From Peribolospora baueri (lineage: Eukaryota), in NCBI GenBank assembly GCA_029717555.1, contig JAMDHS010000110.1, forward strand, positions 1 to 63,374: 63,374 bases of DNA. Reading direction: 5' to 3'. The notes beneath the pieces were generated by a model that was not told the origin of the DNA, did no database searches, and worked only from the letters and a program-made list of their open reading frames with translations. This document shows, in pieces, positions 5,867-13,012 of the stretch. The first letter of the stretch is position 1; every line of letters starts with the position of its first letter. The translations under genes were made by a program, and so were the position numbers.

Positions 5867-7217
5867 TCCGGTGGCCGGAGCGGGGGGAAGCAGGTATGCA
5901 AGAGGAGGAAAGAGAGGCGAGCGGAAGAGAGGGTGGTGGACGACGATGATCACGGGAGTGGGAGCAAATAACCGAGGCTCGGTGAGGATGGAGATGGAGA
6001 TGGAGATGGCGACGAAAAGGACGACGACGACGGGCTGGCGTTGGCGTCGGCTTCGGCCTCGGCGTCGGTGTTGCGTTCGCGACGGTCTTCCCTTTCCGGT
6101 GGCCACGATCTATCGGAGGAATCGGACCGCATCATTTCATCCGTCCCCCTTTCTCTCCACCACCGGCGCCCGTCTTCTCTCCCTCGCAACGCCGCGCAAC
6201 CACGCTCGCCTCTAGAAACAGGGACCTAGCGACGACGACGACGAACAGAAAGACCTCGCCAAGGACGCTTGGGACAAGAACAAACAGCGCACACGTTCGC
6301 AAACGTGCGACGGATGAAGGTGGGCTTACGGCCGCCGGCGTCGACCAAATATAACCCTATCTCGGCCAGCCTGACCGGGCGGGCACTGAAACGTCGTCGA
6401 AGCTCGCCAAGACTTCTAACTCGCCCATCCTCCTCAGCGCAATCCACTGCCAATCTCGGTGAGGATGTTGGGCGCGTTGTTCTTGAACGAGACCGATGCG
6501 GTGATTATCTCTCCCGATACTCGCTTTCGCCGTCTTTGTGGACGACCTAGTGTTCATTGACCATGCTTTCGCGAAAGAGAGGACACGAAGCGTTCCCTCT
6601 CCACCAACTCTGCGATGCCCAACCTAGAAGATTGCAACACTTCCGCGGATCTGGCATCACTCGAGATGGATCGTCGCGAACCCATCCATATTTTTCAAGC
6701 GTGTATACGTGCTGAACTAGCCAGACATTGTTTCGCTGACTCTCGTCCAATCTCGACGCCTCTGGATGTTACTAAGCCGTGAAGAGGAGGGAAGGACTTT
6801 GCCTTCTCCAGAATGCCGCGACGGCTCTGCTGTAAACATTTAGGGGGAGATCTCGTGGGCGCACGAGCGAACGCGGCAGCATATGACGCGATGGCGCACA
6901 TACATGCGGGCATCTACTGACTACCACTATATGATGGTAAGGCCAAAACGAGAACTAGGCACACACGGTCATCCACCGGAGCTGCCGCGCCGCAAGATTG
7001 GCAAGAGGTCGATGGTGGTCTTGCTCGGATGGAAATGTGTTAAATGAAATGTGCTTTCTACGGAGAATCGCTGTCAGGGATTGCTCCCTATTCAGGTCGT
7101 CGGGTGGCAAGGCAGGAGGAACAGAAGGGGTTGCACCAGGAGTCGACACCGAACCGAGACAGGAGGAGGAAAGGGAGCAAGGAAGCAGAGAGGCAGGACA
7201 AGACTCAAGGACCTGAG

Positions 7218-7632
7218 TGATGACAAAAGTATCTCCAGCTTGGGGAAAGGAGAGGTGGAGGCCCTGTCGGGCCCCCTACATATACAAGGCAGTTGTGTCA
7301 TCTCGGATCGGAGGCGGCGTTTATGACAGTACCCCGGGGCTAAGCGCGAGCTCCGCGAGCGCGACTGAGGCTGGACGGGCGCTGGGGGGCGGCCGTGTGC
7401 GAGGAGAGCGGTTGACATAGGCGTTTTGAACCGGGCTTCTGGGGGTAGGCCGTGTGGAAGTCGATAACAAGGGCATCATCATCGTCGAAGTCGCGCGCAT
7501 CCACCCAAGAGCGCTCCTCAGGTCCATAGCCGACCAATCGACGAGGTACTGGAGCTGTCGACGGCGAAGACGGGAGTCGAGGATCTTGGCTACTTCGTAT
7601 TCTTCTTGACCAGTCTCCGTTCTGATGACCTG
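7218..7632 (-). mobile_element. 3' remnant of a chromodomain-bearing Ty3/Gypsy element: frameshifted chromodomain, degenerate PPT region and LTR start
   Basis: [24 protein letters not shown]/(1-bp frameshift)/[15 protein letters not shown]...[10 protein letters not shown], then stop, GGGGTAC|TGTCATAAAC (TG start at 7328). LTR end uncertain. Confidence 0.8.
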
Positions 7633-7639
7633 CTAGAAG

Positions 7640-8397
7640 TGGCCTTGGAGGGGGTACTACTAGTGGTTACAGAGGAAGGTCCTGAGGTAGGGAGGGTACT
7701 GCTACGCAATCGCCTCTCCACTGCTTGACCATTTCTTGTACAGTCGTTGAGTCATGAGTATTAATAACATCATGTTGACTGCGCAGGAAAGCCTCCTCTT
7801 TCTGGCCGCTGAGACTCGGGAAGCGGAGTTCAAGCGGATTTGATCTATGGAGCTACGAAAGCGTTCACACAGAGTCCTGATATGGGTCATAGACATCTGG
7901 GAGCACTTGAGCCATAGCGGTGAAGGGGGCTGCCTTTTCGCGAAGGCTTTGGGCCAGCTGCTGCACTACTTTCTCCTCCTTTTGGAGACAGGTGAGGAGC
8001 TGAAGCTCCTTTTGCCTCGCCCAAATGAGTTTGTCGAGAAAAGTAGTTCGGCAAGCGTGGGCCGCTAGCTCCATATCAGAGGTTACAGAGGCGATGTCTT
8101 ATGTAGGGTCGGGCAAAGTCTGAAACTTGAAGAGGAGGCAGTTTGACTGCGTTGGCGATCGCTGGGGGATAAACCCCAGTGGCTTTCGCTGTTTCCAGCT
8201 CGGCCATGCCAGCCTGTACGCGAAAGCCCCTCAACACGTTGCTGGTGTAAGCAGCAACGTGCTCCTTGTAGGTTTCAAGGAAAGAGGGGGGTACCTCTAA
8301 CTGGGACAGCCAGGCTGTTCACCAGGTCTTCCTCCATTAGGGGATCGACAGCGAGACGCTTGTTACGGCGTTGGATGGCGGGGGTGGCGGTGGTCAT
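7640..8397 (-). pseudogene. Decayed helical/coiled-coil ORF, probable ORF1 of a downstream tandem Penelope-like unit
   Basis: ATG 8397 MTTATPAIQRRNKR, in-frame TGA at 8319-8321, continuing through frameshifts (VYPPAIANAVKLPPLQ; LDKLIWARQKELQLL; Ser/Thr-rich tail). Lies directly after the ribozyme and telomeric dimer. The ORF1 identity is inferred from position. Confidence 0.5.
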
Positions 8398-8451
8398 TGC
8401 GCGCCGGAGAGTGGGAAGGGGTGGGAGAGAGCCGGAGGTCGGCTTTTATCG

Positions 8452-8463
8452 AGGGTTAGGGTT
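8452..8463 (-). repeat. Telomeric dimer (AGGGTT)2, read as AACCCTAACCCT on the retroelement sense strand
   Basis: agggttagggtt at 8452-8463, about 75 nt downstream of the ribozyme. Confidence 0.65.
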
Positions 8464-8536
8464 TTGTCGTCAACTTGGGGCTGCCATGAAGTTGCTGCGA
8501 ACCAAAAAAACTAAGCCGCAAGAGAAGAAAGAGCAA

Positions 8537-8574
8537 GCTGCGACAGTGTTTCGCCCGAGGGCTCGTCAGGCAGC
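8537..8574 (-). ncRNA. Minimal type I hammerhead ribozyme
   Basis: Minus strand reads GCUGC CUGACGA GCCC UC GGGC GAAAC ACU GUC GCAGC: 5-bp stem I, CUGANGA core, 4-bp stem II, GAAA core, very short stem III and GUC cleavage triplet. About 60 nt after the RT stop. Confidence 0.9.
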
Positions 8575-8632
8575 AACGATCAGCTCTCTCCCTTGCGGTG
8601 AGGCGCGAAAGTTTCACCGTGGGAATACCGGG

Positions 8633-10720
8633 TCACGTCGTGATAGACGTGAGCGCCGTGTCACCTGATTGATTAGGTGACGTACCTGCGGTGAGTCGCG
8701 TGGCTAGTTCATTAGGATGAGGGTCATAATCCAACTGCACGCGTTTAACGCGATGCCCCTGGATGGATCTCTTGTTTGACGCGTTGAAGAGGTCACCGAG
8801 GCTACGTGTTTTCCTTTTACAATTGATGATCCGAGTGCCCCGAGGGACGAACCCGAGATCAACCCATTGGGAGAGGTAAGGGTCCCAGACGGGACGCAAA
8901 TCGACTGCATCCCAGATGGGGTTGTAAAAGGTTTTGAACACGAGTCGTGGTGGCGGTTTCGTAGCGTCGCTCGTCTCTCTTTCAGCCGGGTGTGCGTGTG
9001 AAAGGGCTCGCTCGCGGAGAGCGTAGTAATTGAGACTGAGGAAAACCTTCCTGAGATACCGAAGGGGATAACCCCGCGCTCGGAGTCTCTGGAAGAAGAG
9101 ATCACGTACCGATAAGTAGTCTGCCAGTTCTGAAGCGTTACGGATGTACCGCGTCAGTTCGGCCTTAATGAAGGCCGATTTGACAGCTACTGGATGGTAG
9201 GAGGACCAGGGGATGTATTGACAGGCGTTAAGGCTCTTCTTGAAGGTTCGGGTTCCGAAACCATCGTTGGAGAGGTGGGTGAAGGGGTTGGCCTCCACAA
9301 ACACTTCCACATCCAGGAATTCAAGCTTTGTGAGGGAAGCTTTAACGCTTATCTTAAGCTGTGGGTGGATACTTGCCAGAAGCGAGCGAAGAACGTCGAG
9401 GACATCATTTTCGTTCCGCTGGTTGCTTGTGAGGGCAACCATGGCGGAGATATCGTCAATGTACCTGGCATAGTACAACACGTTTGCCTGGAGAAGCAGC
9501 TCCGAGGTGAGCTGTTGCTCGTGCCACGCCATGAAGAGGTTGGCGTACGCTGGTGCGCAGCTAGGCCCCATGGCTGTTCCTCCGATTTGCTTGTAGGTAA
9601 CCCCGGAGAAAGTGAAGTAGTTGTTCCAGAGGACTTGGGTGAGCAAGGAAAGGATGAGATCCTTTGTGCCTTGATCGTACCCAGACTTGGAGATGACAGA
9701 GCGTGGTGTTGGCAACCCTTCCTGGGTGGGAATGGAGGGATACATTGCCTTAACATCGCCAGATACAAGGTAAAGCCGCAGCGTCGGCAAAATTTGCCGG
9801 GATAGGTTTGTGATCCCTCAAATTCCTTGGAATCACGGAGAATCCAGGGGTAGCCGGGCAGAAGCGGTTGCAGCTTATAGTCGATCCATGCAGATGCCTT
9901 TGACCAGAAGGTATCGAATCCAGGGACGATGGGGCGTCCGGCGATGGGATTTTTATGGATCTTGGGAATCAGATTGAACTGCGGGAGGCGTAGATCATTT
10001 CCGGTCAACCTCGGAGGAGAGTAACCACTTCCTTTCTTGGGAGGAAAGGGAAGACCGGTAAAGCTCTGTGAGGCGTCGGAGGGTAGCTAGCCAAGCCCTT
10101 GTGTTAGGGTTTGTAATGGCATAGACAGCTCGATCCCTCAGTTGCCTTTGCGCTTCGTTGAAATACCATGTCTCGGAGACAATGTTATCATTGGGGAGCA
10201 CCAGAGTGTCTCCATCTGATAGGAATTCACGAAGAGCAGTCCAAGTCTTTTTACCGAGGTTTGGGGCCGTTGGAAGACGATTTCTGGCAGCGGTATGAAT
10301 CGCTGTCATCAACGCAGAACGACCGACAGCGAGGCTGCGCTCAGAACGGTGACTTTGTTTAGGAGCGGGGGTCTGGCTGGGAATGTGAAACCTTGGGACG
10401 AAAGGTTGAACATCTGGTTTATCGCGGAAAAACCATCTCCAGCGAGCGCGTCGTTCGAAGTCCTCAATAGAGGTAGTCCATTCGGTGTCTGACATTCTAG
10501 GTTTCGGAATAAACTTCATATTGAAAGCTAGGGTCCGTTTGACTTGGAGCGACAGAGGTTTACCCGCAATGTTGTGTACCTCATTGTTTTTGACTAGGGT
10601 GTCAATAAACAAGGGGGACGAATGCCGGTATACGAACTTTGCGCGCTCTGCGGGTGTAAGAGCGAAAGGAGATGTCTGAATATGTAGCCATTTTTCTCAC
10701 ATTAAAGTGAGGGCCTACAT
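8633..10720 (-). mobile_element. Penelope-like element reverse transcriptase, no endonuclease seen (Coprina-like); frameshifted
   Basis: VHN..LS..L...KFIP, IPKIHKNPIAGRPIV, LVSGDVKAMYPSIP, KQIGGTAMGPSCAPAYANLF, YARYIDDI, LEFLDV, YIPWSSYHP..K..FIKAELTRY, RLRARGYP. Split over three or more frames; no GIY-YIG motif seen at either end. Confidence 0.9.
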
Positions 10721-10794
10721 ACCGAGTGGAGGACTTTTTGGGGTCCTGTCGTCCCTTTCCTCTCCTTCCCCCACCTCCGCCAGTTTTCTTGGTG

Positions 10795-12272
10795 CCAGAT
10801 GCAGCAGCGACGGCGCTCCCGAGTGCAGCTTCGCAAGCAGACCTCGAGCCCGTCTCATCCTGGCTGATCCTTACCCATCCTCCAGAGTCGCGCTCCACAA
10901 GCCTCTCGCCGAACCACGTCTTGCCGGAGCCGGGTAGGCCGATGAGCATGATCAATTGAGGGTCTCGATCCAGTCTTCCGACCATCTGAAATCCTTGCCT
11001 TCCGGTTCTCCTACATCTTCCTCGTCTATTTGCGACGATGTCGCTTGACTGTGCTTCTTCCAAGCGCGCTTCACGAACGTCTCCACAAACTCTTCCTGCG
11101 CTCGAGTCTCTACACTTCCCGGGCGGATCTCGCGCAGGGCGGCGATGGCCGAGTGGGCGTCCATTTGAGGTGGAGGAAGAGCGCGAGGAAAGGAGGATGG
11201 GAGGTTGAAAGGTGGCAGCTCGAAGCCGAATAGGGCGATGTAGCACGCCAAGAAGGTCCCTGCTCGGCCTTCCAGAGTGGAACCCGCGGCAGGAGAAGCG
11301 TGAGTCGATCAATAGCGTCGGGCTTTTTTTTCGAACGACTCGCCTCCTCCTTCGTCGCGAGCAAACCCTATTCAGTGTAGCGAGGATAAGAACAGAGTTT
11401 GCTCATCGCGTGGTCGAATACTTTGCGAGCCTTCTCCTCGGCCTTGTCCACCTTGCTTATCTGCTGATCATGCTTGTAAGCAGAGCCTTCTTCTTCGAGC
11501 TCCAACACCTTGTACCAGCTCAGCATTGCCAGCTTCCACTTTCCTTCCCTATTCGCCCAATCGGCCAACCTAGCCCAGCCCCTGGAATCACCGGCATGAC
11601 GAAGAGACGATAATGAGAGCAGCGTGTAATGCGTGTGTAAGGTTTTGACGGGCGAGAAAGTGCAGAAAGAGATCGTCGAGATGGAAAACAAGGGAACTCT
11701 TTGCATGAGCCGGCCGTGGATTCAAGGCTGGCTCGCGGAGAAGCCTGAGTGATGGAACAGGCGCCCTTCTCGACGTTATGCTCGTGGCACCTCGAAATGG
11801 TGATGTGGAAATCTTTGAGCGGCAGGCCGAGCTGTCGACGGAGCTTATCACCCGTCGCCCAAGCAATGACCACGAAGGAGACGTTAGGAGAGCCGGAGGA
11901 GAACGAGGATGTCGTCTTTTCCTTGCCGGAGTCGGAGGCCTTCGCTTGGCCGAGACCAAGCGGAATAATCCGGCCTAGGTCAATGGAAAAACCTTGTTTT
12001 GACTTTGACGATCCACGATCTCCTGCTCCTGCAACGGGCAACCTCTCCACCACCTGTTTGGCCTTTTCCGACAAGCTGCGCAGCTCGTCCTTGGTGCAGA
12101 ACGTGATGTGAAATTCGTCGTTGATGGCGTCGTTCCGCTTGACTGGGACGTTGTGTGGTACTAGCGGCAGGTGCTCGTTGGCGATGGAGTCGACAAAAGG
12201 CCCTGTAAGGGTTAGATAGCCGCGTGTGCGCACTAAACGGAAAGAAGAAGCGTCTGAAGGACGTGACGACAT
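10795..12272 (-). pseudogene. Truncated multi-domain RNA end-healing ('Swiss-army-knife' type) gene: 2H phosphoesterase, TPR-like segment, Cys-phosphatase remnant, P-loop kinase N-half
   Basis: Two HxT motifs (FHITF about 12105; LGLPLKDFHITI about 11800), RGWARLADW..KLAML, GRAGTFLACYIAL..AIAALREIRPGSVET..QEEFV, LIMLIGLPGSGKTWF..ISQDE. Several frameshifts, a damaged HCx5R loop, and no ligase domain found. Confidence 0.75.
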
Positions 12273-12441
12273 GATCGGATGACCCGCTATTGGTCTGAAT
12301 TGGGTTATGAAAGTGTTGGGGGCAGATGGAAGAAAGAGAAAAAGAAAATAAGAAAAGGGCCGAAGTGGTTTGTCCGTGAAGATGCTACCGAATTTGTATG
12401 CGGTGAGGAAACCAAGACGATGGAGTCTGTCACATAACAAA

Positions 12442-12452
12442 GTTTATATAGG
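12442..12452 (-). promoter_or_regulatory. TATA-like box (TATATAAA) upstream of the RNA-repair pseudogene
   Basis: cctatataaac on the minus strand about 170 bp before ATG 12272, followed by a pyrimidine-rich leader. Confidence 0.4.
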
Positions 12453-13012
12453 CGGGAGAAATCAAACTCGATGCCGAGAAATTGACAGTCGGAAACGCAA
12501 GTCAGATGAGAGACGAAAGTGAAGCGCTGGGTATGCCTCCGTCTTCGTCTTCGCGGACTGGGTGTCATCTCAAGCGAGTCGAGTCGAAAGACGGGGGAGT
12601 CGGCTCGACCCTGTAGAACGCGAAATGAAGCGGTCTCCCTGTGACCAGGACTCGTTGAGGTTCAAGAGAGATTTCTAATGGCGGTGGACCAGAATGGCGG
12701 TGCACAGAGTCAGAATCATGTCTGTCTCGGCAAGATGCAGACCGAAACTTGGGGGGTGCGGAAACGAGGGATAATGAGTCCTGTAAAGTGGGATATGACT
12801 CGAAGAGTGGAGCGGGCCGCCTCTCCGTGACCGAGGCCCGGGGTTGCTGCGGGCCGGGCCGAGCATAGAGACCAACTGTCCCTTAGAGGCAGCTCGGGCT
12901 GCTTTTGAGGACGTCTATTTGAAGCCACCCATCTCCCCCTCTCTCCTCGACATTCAACTCTCCTCCTTTCCAACTTATTTTGACCGCCCCTCAACTGATC
13001 CATATCCAAAAC

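What the first reader, a model, noticed from the sequence alone, without database searches (positions are those of the whole stretch)
8537..8574. Intact 38-nt minimal hammerhead ribozyme invisible to the ORF track
Seen: all core nucleotides (CUGACGA, GAAA, GUC) with fully paired stems I and II; predicted cleavage between 8542 and 8541. Stem III is only about 2 bp with a 3-nt ACU loop, not the palindromic loop that lets many minimal PLE hammerheads act as dimers. It looks undamaged although the flanking ORFs carry stops and frameshifts. Activity is untested.
Basis: partly seen in the sequence, partly recalled or inferred. Interest (0 to 1): 0.75.

Follow-up and report, generated by a model that had tools for sequence, protein, structure and literature searches.

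The report
Shortened hammerhead in dead fungal retroelement
The small self-cutting RNA motif is real, but it is the already described tail ribozyme of a telomere-type "Penelope-like" jumping gene, here in a broken copy inside a fungal chromosome and with most of one of its three stems deleted.

Summary
The 38-nt type I hammerhead is on the minus strand at 8574->8537, with the cut predicted after C8542. My stem-and-core descriptor expects 0.04 such motifs per shuffled window.

It lies 58 nt after the stop of a frameshifted, endonuclease-less Penelope-like (Coprina-type) reverse transcriptase. A telomere-complement motif follows 73 nt later, then the start of a second, truncated unit. This is a partial tandem.

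A covariance model built only from relatives ranks this motif first in the window at 17.1 bits. It finds hammerheads in 52 of 77 related loci, 60 of 63 on the RT strand. Nine of 12 stem pairs covary. The layout hammerhead, 44-62 nt, telomere motif, ATG recurs in 34 of 51 cases.

The "intact minimal" reading fails in one respect. Sibling copies carry 11 more letters inside helix III, and relatives have helix III stems mostly of 5-9 bp. This copy is therefore a helix III deletion derivative. The short form still holds about 56% of the family's depth in the same organism.

Hammerheads in fungal telomere-type PLEs are in print (PMC4209133, PMC8557442). This is a new member of a known kind. Activity is untested.

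The parts
8537..8574 (-). Type I hammerhead motif. Helix I 8574-8570/8541-8537; core CUGACGA 8569-8563; helix II 8562-8553; GAAA 8552-8549; helix III 8549-8543 (2 bp, 3-nt loop); C17 = 8542.
   Evidence: CM R1 hit 8573->8538, 17.1 bits
8541..8542 (-). Predicted self-cleavage site (GUC then G), between C8542 and G8541.
   Evidence: Read from the sequence. Cleavage itself was not tested.
8546..8547 (-). Site of the 11-letter difference in helix III. Other copies carry AAAGCTTTTGC (+ strand letters as printed) between these two positions; the window copy lacks them.
   Evidence: table 4: with the extra letters 583.9 of 1368.6 (X1), 506.3 of 1140.7 (X2), 110.8 of 110.8 (X3), 91.2 of 91.2 (X4)
8464..8536 (-). 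73-nt spacer between the hammerhead and the telomere-complement motif.
   Evidence: The relatives' spacer is 44-62 nt, median 56.
8453..8463 (-). Reverse-complement telomere motif AACCCTAACCC (GGGTTAGGGTT on the + strand). It marks the end of the high-copy part of the element.
   Evidence: Depth falls from 1014 (bin 8453-8669) to 295 (bin 8236-8452) in X1, and an X3 contig begins at 8463.
8633..10752 (-). Unit A: 5'-truncated, frameshifted endonuclease-less PLE reverse-transcriptase ORF. Pieces: 10696->9998, about 10005->9820 in another frame, and 9817->8636. Stop codon 8635-8633.
   Evidence: tblastn with homologs; profile positions 362-995 of 999; homologs 37-41% identical, named ones from Phenoliferia and Microbotryum; only RVT_1 and no GIY-YIG
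7675..8452 (-). Unit B: 5' part of the next unit in tandem. It has a 55-nt leader, an ATG at 8397-8395, and decayed N-terminal coding pieces 8318->8079 and 8098->7868. It is cut off at 7675.
   Evidence: Profile positions 36-94 (E 3e-6) and 105-165 (E 7e-6) of the homolog profile. The joint 10752->7675 in X1 and X2 gives a unit length of 3078.
8516..8598 (-). Long outer duplex (8598-8583 with 8534-8516) that encloses the hammerhead. Seen in this family only.
   Evidence: flank duplex -25.5 kcal/mol, z -3.6 against shuffles. Absent in most of the 21 relatives tested.

Best explanation
This is the hammerhead ribozyme of the 3'-terminal module of an endonuclease-deficient, Coprina-type Penelope-like retroelement in a GC-rich fungus, probably a basidiomycete yeast.

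The family unit is about 3.1 kb. In order it holds a short leader, an ORF (N-terminal domain plus RT), a stop, 58 nt, the hammerhead, a 73-nt spacer and AACCCTAACCC.

The window holds a partial tandem inside a gene-rich region. A 5'-truncated unit (10752->8453) is followed by the first 0.8 kb of the next unit (8452->7675). The hammerhead sits at their junction, in the position of a PLE pseudo-LTR.

In the family, the motif most likely self-cleaves read-through or tandem transcripts after GUC. That would leave a 2',3'-cyclic phosphate on the upstream ORF RNA. It would leave a 5'-OH on a fragment that starts with the 3' strand of helix I and carries the spacer and the telomere-complement motif.

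DNA copies end at the telomere motif, not at the cut. The RNA that is reverse-transcribed must therefore still contain the uncleaved hammerhead, so cleavage is a side or processing reaction rather than the step that makes the priming end.

This particular copy has lost 11 nt of helix III. It keeps a perfect core and helices I and II, and sits in a dead element. As a monomer it is probably weak or inactive, and it has no function at this locus.

Shown: the motif, the element, the tandem layout, conservation and covariation in relatives, and the deletion.

Inferred: cleavage, its role, and the loss of activity.
For: Motif and chance.

Element:
- tblastn with homologs maps one RT copy, 10666->8750, in three frame pieces.
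- The homolog profile also matches the N-terminal part downstream of the hammerhead.
- 42 homologs were found; the named ones are basidiomycete, and only 2 of the 42 carry GIY-YIG.

Family-wide hammerhead:
- The strict descriptor finds one on the RT strand in 38 of 77 RT-related metagenome loci, against 2 on the other strand.
- The CM finds it in 52 of 77 loci, with 60 of 63 hits on the RT strand.
- By eye, 12 of the 13 complete units that failed the descriptor hold a core with slightly imperfect stems.

Covariation: 96.2% of cells are paired and 9 of 12 pairs change on both sides. The score is 0.467, against 0.114 in shuffles (0 of 500 reach it) and 0.03-0.11 when partners are slid.

Module: 34 of 51 hammerheads are followed at 44-62 nt by a telomere-complement 8-mer, and 33 of those 34 by an ATG within 70 nt. 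The background is 111 of 2232 windows.

Tandem habit: 29 of 77 contigs have exact terminal overlaps of 50 nt or more. A joint 10752->7675 is present in X1 and X2.

Copy boundary at the telomere motif, and the 11-letter helix III difference.

Literature:
- Fungal PLE hammerheads have a large helix III, and the Serpula one cleaves as a monomer (PMC4209133, abstract and passages).
- Athena and Coprina combine reverse-complement telomere repeats with an adjacent HHR (PMC8557442 and PMC6431247, passages).
- In a lizard PLE, uncleaved RNA is the main substrate and HHR mutants still insert in vitro (PMC11167929, passages).
Against: - No RNA data: no RNA run holds the stretch, so neither transcription nor cleavage has been seen.
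- Rfam's hammerhead models do not reach threshold.
- The thermodynamic model prefers a non-native fold for both forms. Short form: MFE -12.5 against hammerhead fold -8.1 kcal/mol. Long form: -16.0 against -12.3. This is weak evidence, because tertiary contacts are not modelled.
- The short helix III form holds about 56% of the family's depth in X1 and X2. It may therefore have spread after the deletion, which argues against calling it simply dead.
- The element is not at a chromosome end. Ordinary genes (RNA polymerase I Rpa2, an epimerase, an FMN oxidoreductase) lie on both sides. That is unusual for an endonuclease-less PLE.
- The covariation set was chosen with a descriptor that demands minimal pairing. 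The paired percentage of helices I and II is therefore partly built in; only the pair-type changes and helix III pairs 3-5 are free evidence.
Confidence: 0.8

Rival explanations
1. The short form is a working minimal hammerhead. After the 11-nt deletion it acts like metazoan PLE min-hammerheads, as a dimer through its near-palindromic helix III strand or with help from the element's protein. It was spread further by retrotransposition.
For: - The short form holds about 785 of 1369 (X1) and 634 of 1141 (X2) depth units, against about 110 for single-copy flanks.
- The core and helices I and II are untouched.
- The double-hammerhead fold scores -25.2 kcal/mol, against 2 x -8.1 for two monomer folds.
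- One relative (L008) has a true helix-III-less, palindromic form, and two others (L007, L048) have very short helix III.
- Protein-assisted cleavage is reported for a lizard PLE hammerhead (PMC11167929, passages).
Against: - Depth of collapsed contigs is not a copy count, and segmental duplication would give the same picture.
- No second hammerhead lies in the window for a cis dimer.
- The dimer's lowest-energy fold is non-native (-31.1 kcal/mol).
- No activity data exist.
Confidence: 0.3
2. The hammerhead fold serves mainly as a structural 3' element. It would be a binding or positioning site for the RT next to the telomere-complement primer-binding motif. Cleavage would be incidental or even harmful to transposition.
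For: - DNA copies end at the telomere motif and include the whole hammerhead, so the template is uncleaved RNA.
- The distance from hammerhead to telomere motif is tightly kept at 44-62 nt in 34 relatives.
- A review describes the ribozyme fold as exposing the adjacent telomere repeats (PMC6431247, passage).
- HHR mutants still insert in vitro (PMC11167929, passage).
Against: - The catalytic core letters are invariant in 28 distinct relatives, which a mere scaffold would not need.
- The fungal Serpula PLE hammerhead cleaves well in vitro (PMC4209133, passage).
- The short form lost much of the fold yet seems to persist.
Confidence: 0.3
3. It is a chance match to the hammerhead consensus with no relation to the retroelement.
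For: - The loose core pattern is not enriched.
- There is no Rfam match.
- The fold energy of the 38-mer is ordinary, z -1.0.
Against: - Only 0.04 hits are expected per window for the full descriptor.
- It is the top CM hit of the window.
- It lies exactly where 52 of 77 related elements have theirs.
- It is followed by the same telomere motif and ATG layout.
Confidence: 0.01

Closest known systems
Hammerheads of telomere-associated, endonuclease-deficient PLEs of fungi (Coprina clade), as described by Cervera and de la Pena 2014 (PMC4209133) and cited in Craig et al. 2021 (PMC8557442)
   Same: - Type I topology.
- Lies in the repeat or junction region of a PLE without GIY-YIG.
- Reverse-complement telomere repeats lie next to it.
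- No obvious loop-loop contacts.
- The sibling long form and the relatives have a sizeable helix III.
   Different: - This copy has only a 2-bp helix III after an 11-nt deletion.
- The element lies inside a gene-rich region, not at a chromosome end.
- The spacer to the telomere motif is 73 nt, against 44-62 nt in the relatives I fetched.
Minimal (min-HHR) hammerheads of metazoan PLEs, thought to act as dimers (PMC4209133)
   Same: - Very short helix III with a self-complementary strand.
- Short helix I.
- PLE context.
   Different: - Helix II is 3 bp here, against 6-8 bp there.
- The helix III strand has a central mismatch.
- The form arose by a recent deletion from a long-helix-III ancestor.
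- No tandem partner is present in the window.
Athena/Terminon 3' ends of bdelloid rotifers (PMC6431247, passages; the primary 2017 paper is not held and was not read)
   Same: [quoted passage not shown]
   Different: - There the repeats are said to lie immediately downstream of the hammerhead; here 73 nt separate them.
- The host kingdom and the telomere repeat differ.

Membership tests
Hammerhead ribozyme, type I | Conserved core C3 U4 G5 A6 N7 G8 A9 ... G12 A13 A14 (numbering recalled from Hertel et al., as used in PMC4209133) | tested here: met
   CUGACGA at 8569-8563 and GAA at 8552-8550. The same columns are invariant in 28 relatives.
Hammerhead ribozyme, type I | Three helices around the core, with G10.1-C11.1 and A15.1-U16.1 closing pairs, a non-G at position 17, and the open end at helix I | tested here: met
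   Helix I is 5 bp, helix II is 3 bp and starts G-C, helix III has A8549-U8543 plus one more pair, and position 17 is C8542. Helix III is marginal at 2 bp with a 3-nt loop.
Hammerhead ribozyme, type I | Match to a curated covariance model (Rfam hammerhead clan) | tested here: inconclusive
   No match at gathering score or at E<=10. The same models also miss 18 relatives and give a clear one only 13 bits. My own model built from relatives gives 17.1 bits.
Hammerhead ribozyme, type I | Stem covariation among homologs | tested here: met
   9 of 12 pairs change on both sides, with a score of 0.467 against 0.114 in shuffles. This is among related elements. Among copies of the same genome only the helix III indel could be seen.
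Hammerhead ribozyme, type I | Site-specific self-cleavage giving 2',3'-cyclic phosphate and 5'-OH ends | not testable with these tools
   No RNA run is listed, and only contigs of DNA runs could be laid.
Coprina-type endonuclease-deficient Penelope-like element | PLE-type RT with a conserved N-terminal region and thumb, related to fungal PLE proteins | tested here: met
   Homologs are 37-41% identical, including Microbotryum and Phenoliferia proteins. The profile of 25 homologs is covered over positions 36-165 and 362-995 of 999.
Coprina-type endonuclease-deficient Penelope-like element | No GIY-YIG endonuclease domain | tested here: met
   Only RVT_1 is found in the ORF pieces. The ORF stops at 8633, 36 residues after the end of the homolog profile. 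40 of the 42 homologs lack PF01541.
Coprina-type endonuclease-deficient Penelope-like element | Reverse-complement telomere repeats with an adjacent hammerhead at the 3' end | tested here: met
   AACCCTAACCC at 8463->8453, 73 nt after the hammerhead. The copy-number boundary is at that motif.
Coprina-type endonuclease-deficient Penelope-like element | Location at or near a chromosome end | tested here: not met
   No other telomere repeat lies in the 63-kb window. Ordinary genes lie on both sides, including Rpa2 at 23.8-26.9 kb. Where the family's other copies sit is unknown, because no genome is held.
Metazoan PLE min-HHR (dimeric) | Long helix II (6-8 bp), helix III absent or a few palindromic letters, and tandem copies that allow a double hammerhead | tested here: not met
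   Helix II is 3 bp. The helix III strand is self-complementary in 6 of 7 letters. Only one hammerhead lies in the window. The short form is derived by deletion.

The most novel reading that the evidence does not exclude
The family may pass through unit-length circular (or rolling-circle) intermediates made by hammerhead cutting.

The window's copy runs 10752->7675, and in other DNA of the same organism these two positions are direct neighbours. The insert is therefore exactly one 3078-bp unit in circularly permuted order, at a non-telomeric site and without an endonuclease. That is what integration of a linearised unit circle would give.

29 of 77 related contigs also close on themselves. Ordinary tandem arrays explain that equally well.

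A second, milder novelty: one 11-nt deletion turned a fungal large-helix-III hammerhead into a metazoan-style minimal one, and the short form apparently went on spreading.
Probability: 0.12. Interest if true: 0.65.

Novelty: new member of a known kind. Interest (0 to 1): 0.25.

Why it matters
It gives a clean annotation for a small RNA motif that gene callers and Rfam both miss. It also shows, with independent loci, how regular the hammerhead / spacer / telomere-motif / ATG module is in fungal endonuclease-less PLEs.

The natural pair of long and short helix III forms in one genome is a ready-made test. It can ask whether hammerhead cleavage is needed for these elements to spread, a question the literature leaves open (PMC8557442, PMC11167929). 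As a single locus it is a fossil, and ordinary.

Tried and rejected
- **Rfam.** No match at gathering score for the whole window, and none at E<=10 around the site. The relatives' loci also gave nothing. One relative got only a partial 13-bit Hammerhead_HH9 match. Rfam is insensitive to this class.
- **Own genome.** None is held, so genomic copies could not be fetched.
- **Sequencing runs.** No RNA holder is listed. Only 4 DNA runs of one study hold the stretch, as contigs, so no starts or ends of RNA could be seen. Table 6 lists none, as expected for contigs.
- **Phage collection.** A search with the RT gave no match. This was an idle check.
- **RNA-repair neighbour.** I asked whether the neighbouring 2H phosphoesterase plus kinase gene belongs to the element. 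tblastn found no hit in any of the 77 related loci and no second copy in the window. Rejected.
- **Outer duplex.** I asked whether the 16-bp duplex around the hammerhead is a family feature. Most of the 21 relatives tested show none, with z near 0. Not general.
- **First alignment.** The first MAFFT alignment of hammerheads (A2) was out of register at the 3' end. It was replaced by A3, with sequences trimmed to 4 bp of helix I.
- **Papers not held.** Arkhipova et al. 2017 and Gladyshev and Arkhipova 2007 could not be read. What I say of them comes from passages in other papers that cite them.
- **Supplements.** None were opened. The supplementary figures of PMC4209133 may already show hammerheads from similar yeasts.
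- **Earlier notes of this scan.** Nothing was found for this genome or this sequence.

Full report
**1. The observation**

The minus strand from 8574 to 8537 reads GCTGCCTGACGAGCCCTCGGGCGAAACACTGTCGCAGC. It fits a type I hammerhead:

- Helix I: 8574-8570 with 8541-8537, 5 bp.
- Core: CUGACGA at 8569-8563.
- Helix II: 3 bp, starting with G-C, closed by a 4-nt loop.
- GAAA at 8552-8549.
- Helix III: only A8549-U8543 and C8548-G8544 around a 3-nt loop.
- C17 at 8542.

A loose core pattern is not enriched in the window: 2 found against 3.46 expected. A descriptor that also asks for the three stems finds this one site. It finds a mean of 0.04 sites in 200 dinucleotide-preserving shuffles of the window, and 8 of 200 shuffles had any.

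Rfam reports nothing at gathering score or at E<=10 in 8300-8800. The same library also misses the clear hammerheads of 18 related loci, and gives one of them only a partial 13 bits. The blank is a limit of the models, not evidence against the motif.

**2. What surrounds it**

The window is GC-rich at 54-63%. It carries ordinary fungal-type genes on both sides of the site:

- an FMN oxidoreductase at 0.8-2.0 kb;
- an NAD-dependent epimerase at 12.9-13.9 kb;
- RNA polymerase I subunit Rpa2 at 23.8-26.9 kb;
- a Velvet-domain ORF at 42-43 kb.

On the minus strand, 58 nt upstream of the hammerhead, an RT ORF ends with its stop at 8635-8633. Full-length homologs map to 10666->8750 in three frame pieces, so the gene has at least two frameshifts. 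Pfam sees only RVT_1, weakly, and no GIY-YIG.

The 42 homologs found are 24-41% identical. The named ones among the best come from the basidiomycetes Phenoliferia and Microbotryum. Only two distant ones carry a GIY-YIG domain. Coprina elements of Microbotryum are mentioned in PMC8557442 (passage). I read the gene as an endonuclease-deficient, Coprina-type Penelope-like element. No tree against named clades was made.

**3. A partial tandem**

After the hammerhead come a 73-nt spacer, the motif AACCCTAACCC (8463->8453, the reverse complement of the fungal-type telomere repeat), 55 nt, and an ATG (8397-8395).

A profile built from 25 full-length homologs matches two ORF pieces further down the same strand. 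Piece 8318->8079 matches profile positions 36-94 (E 3e-6). Piece 8098->7868 matches positions 105-165 (E 7e-6). The RT pieces cover positions 362-995. The hammerhead therefore sits at the junction between the 3' end of a 5'-truncated unit and the 5' part of a second unit, which is also frameshifted and is cut off at 7675. This is the pseudo-LTR position usual for PLEs (PMC8557442 and PMC11167929, passages).

**4. Copies in the same and a related organism**

No genome is held for the window. Four public DNA runs from one study hold part of the stretch, and I laid their contigs on 6500-13000.

- X1 and X2 match the window's unique flanks without a difference, for example 6500-7121 and 7249-7704. 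They come from the same or a nearly identical organism.
- Summed contig depth is about 110 in unique flanks, 650-1450 over 8453-9971, and about 300-500 over 7585-8452 and 9972-10839. The 3' part of the element is thus the most repeated, as expected for 5'-truncated retroelement copies.
- The drop lies at the telomere motif: 1014 in bin 8453-8669 against 295 in bin 8236-8452. A contig of X3 begins at 8463.
- DNA copies therefore end at the telomere motif, 90 nt beyond the predicted cut. The RNA that is copied into DNA must still hold an uncleaved hammerhead.
- One contig in X1 and X2 joins 10752 directly to 7675 ("goes back 3078"). This gives a unit length of 3078 bp.

**5. The helix III deletion**

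One search also shows 11 extra letters (AAAGCTTTTGC on the + strand) behind 8546, in the middle of helix III.

| Run | Depth with the extra letters | Total depth |
|---|---|---|
| X1 | 583.9 | 1368.6 |
| X2 | 506.3 | 1140.7 |
| X3 | 110.8 | 110.8 |
| X4 | 91.2 | 91.2 |

With these letters helix III has four outer pairs (A-U, C-G, A-U, G-C) and a 10-nt loop that can pair further. Its hammerhead fold scores -12.3 kcal/mol, against -8.1 for the window's short form.

The closest metagenome relative, L001, has the same four outer pairs. The long form is therefore the older one, and the window's 2-bp helix III is the result of a deletion.

The short form is not private to this locus. It accounts for about 56% of the depth in X1 and X2. 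Depth of collapsed contigs is not a copy count, and duplication of segments could give the same figure.

No other well-supported difference inside 8537-8574 is among the 40 rows shown. A further 529 rows were not shown.

**6. Relatives**

A scan of metagenome contigs with the RT alignment gave 77 loci at 30-39% identity.

- My descriptor finds a hammerhead on the RT strand in 38 of the 77, and on the other strand in 2.
- Of 29 contigs whose ends overlap exactly by 50 nt or more (tandem or circular assembly), 16 pass the descriptor. By eye, 12 of the other 13 hold a core with slightly imperfect stems.
- Helix III in these relatives is mostly a 21-34 nt hairpin of 5-9 bp. This agrees with the "large helix III" reported for fungal PLE hammerheads (PMC4209133, passages). 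A few are very short (L007, L008, L048).

On an alignment of 28 distinct hammerheads (A3), 96.2% of cells are paired and 9 of 12 pairs change on both sides. The covariation score is 0.467, against 0.114 in shuffles (0 of 500 as high) and 0.03-0.11 with slid partners. The set was picked with a descriptor that requires some pairing. The pair-type changes and the inner helix III pairs are therefore the free evidence.

A covariance model from A3, without the window, puts the window's motif first in the window at 17.1 bits (rough E 0.0046). The next hit scores 10.2 bits. The model finds 63 hits in 52 of the 77 loci, 60 of them on the RT strand.

**7. A conserved module**

Of 51 full-length hits with enough flank, 34 are followed at 44-62 nt (median 56) by a telomere-complement 8-mer, against 111 of 2232 background windows. 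In 33 of those 34 an ATG follows within 70 nt. Fourteen of 46 also have two or more CCCTAA repeats 241-340 nt upstream of the hammerhead.

The window keeps the same order with a somewhat longer spacer (73 nt). This matches what is in print for Athena and Coprina: reverse-complement telomere repeats combined with an adjacent hammerhead (PMC8557442 and PMC6431247, passages).

**8. How it most likely works**

Shown:
- the motif;
- its place in a dead, partially tandem, endonuclease-less PLE;
- its conservation and covariation in relatives;
- the deletion in helix III.

Inferred:
- In the family, the hammerhead cuts read-through or tandem transcripts after GUC. This separates the upstream ORF RNA (2',3'-cyclic phosphate end) from a 5'-OH RNA that begins about 90 nt before the telomere motif and runs into the next unit.
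- Because DNA copies include the whole hammerhead, the template for telomere-primed reverse transcription is uncleaved RNA. This agrees with the in vitro result for a lizard PLE, where hammerhead mutants still insert (PMC11167929, passages).
- Whether the cut trims leaders, limits template supply, or is secondary to a structural role of the fold stays open, here as in the literature.
- The window's copy, with a 2-bp helix III, is probably a poor monomeric ribozyme. Its helix III strand is self-complementary in 6 of 7 letters. A double-hammerhead fold is 9 kcal/mol better than two monomer folds (-25.2 against 2 x -8.1), but no partner lies nearby.

**9. Known or new**

Hammerheads in PLEs, including fungal telomere-associated ones, were described in 2014 (PMC4209133) and are treated as universal in EN- PLEs (PMC8557442). 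Earlier notes of this scan list several such elements in other fungi. Those notes are unchecked leads; one of them reports a solo "tail" that ends near the cut.

This is a new member of a known kind. It has three particulars: a deletion-derived minimal helix III that nevertheless makes up about half of the family's depth, an internal rather than terminal location, and an insert of exactly one unit in permuted order. The last point is the basis of the bolder reading, that circular intermediates exist. I hold that at about 0.12.

**10. Limits**

- No RNA data and no assay.
- No genome.
- Copies of the same family were seen only as contig tables.
- Two primary papers were not readable.
- No supplements were opened.

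Noticed in passing
window 7675-10752 (minus strand): The PLE insert begins at 10752 and ends at 7675. In X1 and X2 a contig joins these two positions directly ("goes back 3078"). The insert is therefore exactly one unit in circularly permuted order, flanked by unrelated DNA. An integral unit length is not expected from independent truncations. A unit circle or a collapsed tandem could explain it.
   Followed up: partly
window 10752-12790 (minus strand ORFs 12443->11520 and 11402->10602): There is a gene for a 2H-SAK phosphoesterase (E 1e-16) plus the first 33 positions of an AAA_33 P-loop kinase. It is broken off where the PLE begins. It is itself repeated in X1 and X2, at depth 300-825 against about 110. 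In other copies the kinase goes on, shown by a loose end at 10746. The one weak long homolog has an RNA ligase + kinase + 2H architecture. These enzymes would heal hammerhead-type RNA ends, but no link to PLE loci was found.
   Followed up: partly
window 6934-7675 (minus strand): This is a fragment of a chromovirus-type LTR retrotransposon. It holds a frameshifted integrase C-terminus with a chromodomain (Pfam Chromo, E 4e-4), followed by a very high-depth stretch (up to 2800 in X3) that looks like an LTR.
   Followed up: no
window 8516-8598 (minus strand): A purine-rich arm (8598-8583) pairs with a pyrimidine-rich arm (8534-8516) to give a 16-bp outer duplex that encloses the hammerhead (-25.5 kcal/mol, z -3.6). 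After a cut, the two products would stay base-paired. Most relatives lack it.
   Followed up: partly
loci L001-L077: 29 of 77 contigs with related RTs have exact terminal overlaps, mostly of 123 or 127 nt. Their unit lengths cluster at about 3.65-4.1 kb, with the RT at varying offsets. These elements therefore assemble as tandem arrays or circles.
   Followed up: partly
loci L011, L018, L027, L036, L038, L047, L052, L057, L065, L073, L077 and others: In 14 of 46 cases a second, longer run of CCCTAA repeats (2-6 units) lies 241-340 nt upstream of the hammerhead, in addition to the short motif downstream. Which of the two marks the true unit end in those families is unclear.
   Followed up: no
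loci L008, L007: Two relatives have helix III reduced to a short palindromic stretch (4 and 8 letters). This is the metazoan min-hammerhead format, inside a clade where a large helix III is the rule.
   Followed up: no
locus L001 1267-2256: In the closest relative, about 1 kb separates the RT stop from the hammerhead, against 58 nt in the window. Earlier notes of this scan report an exonuclease gene behind the RT in some yeast PLE lineages. I did not check L001 for it.
   Followed up: no
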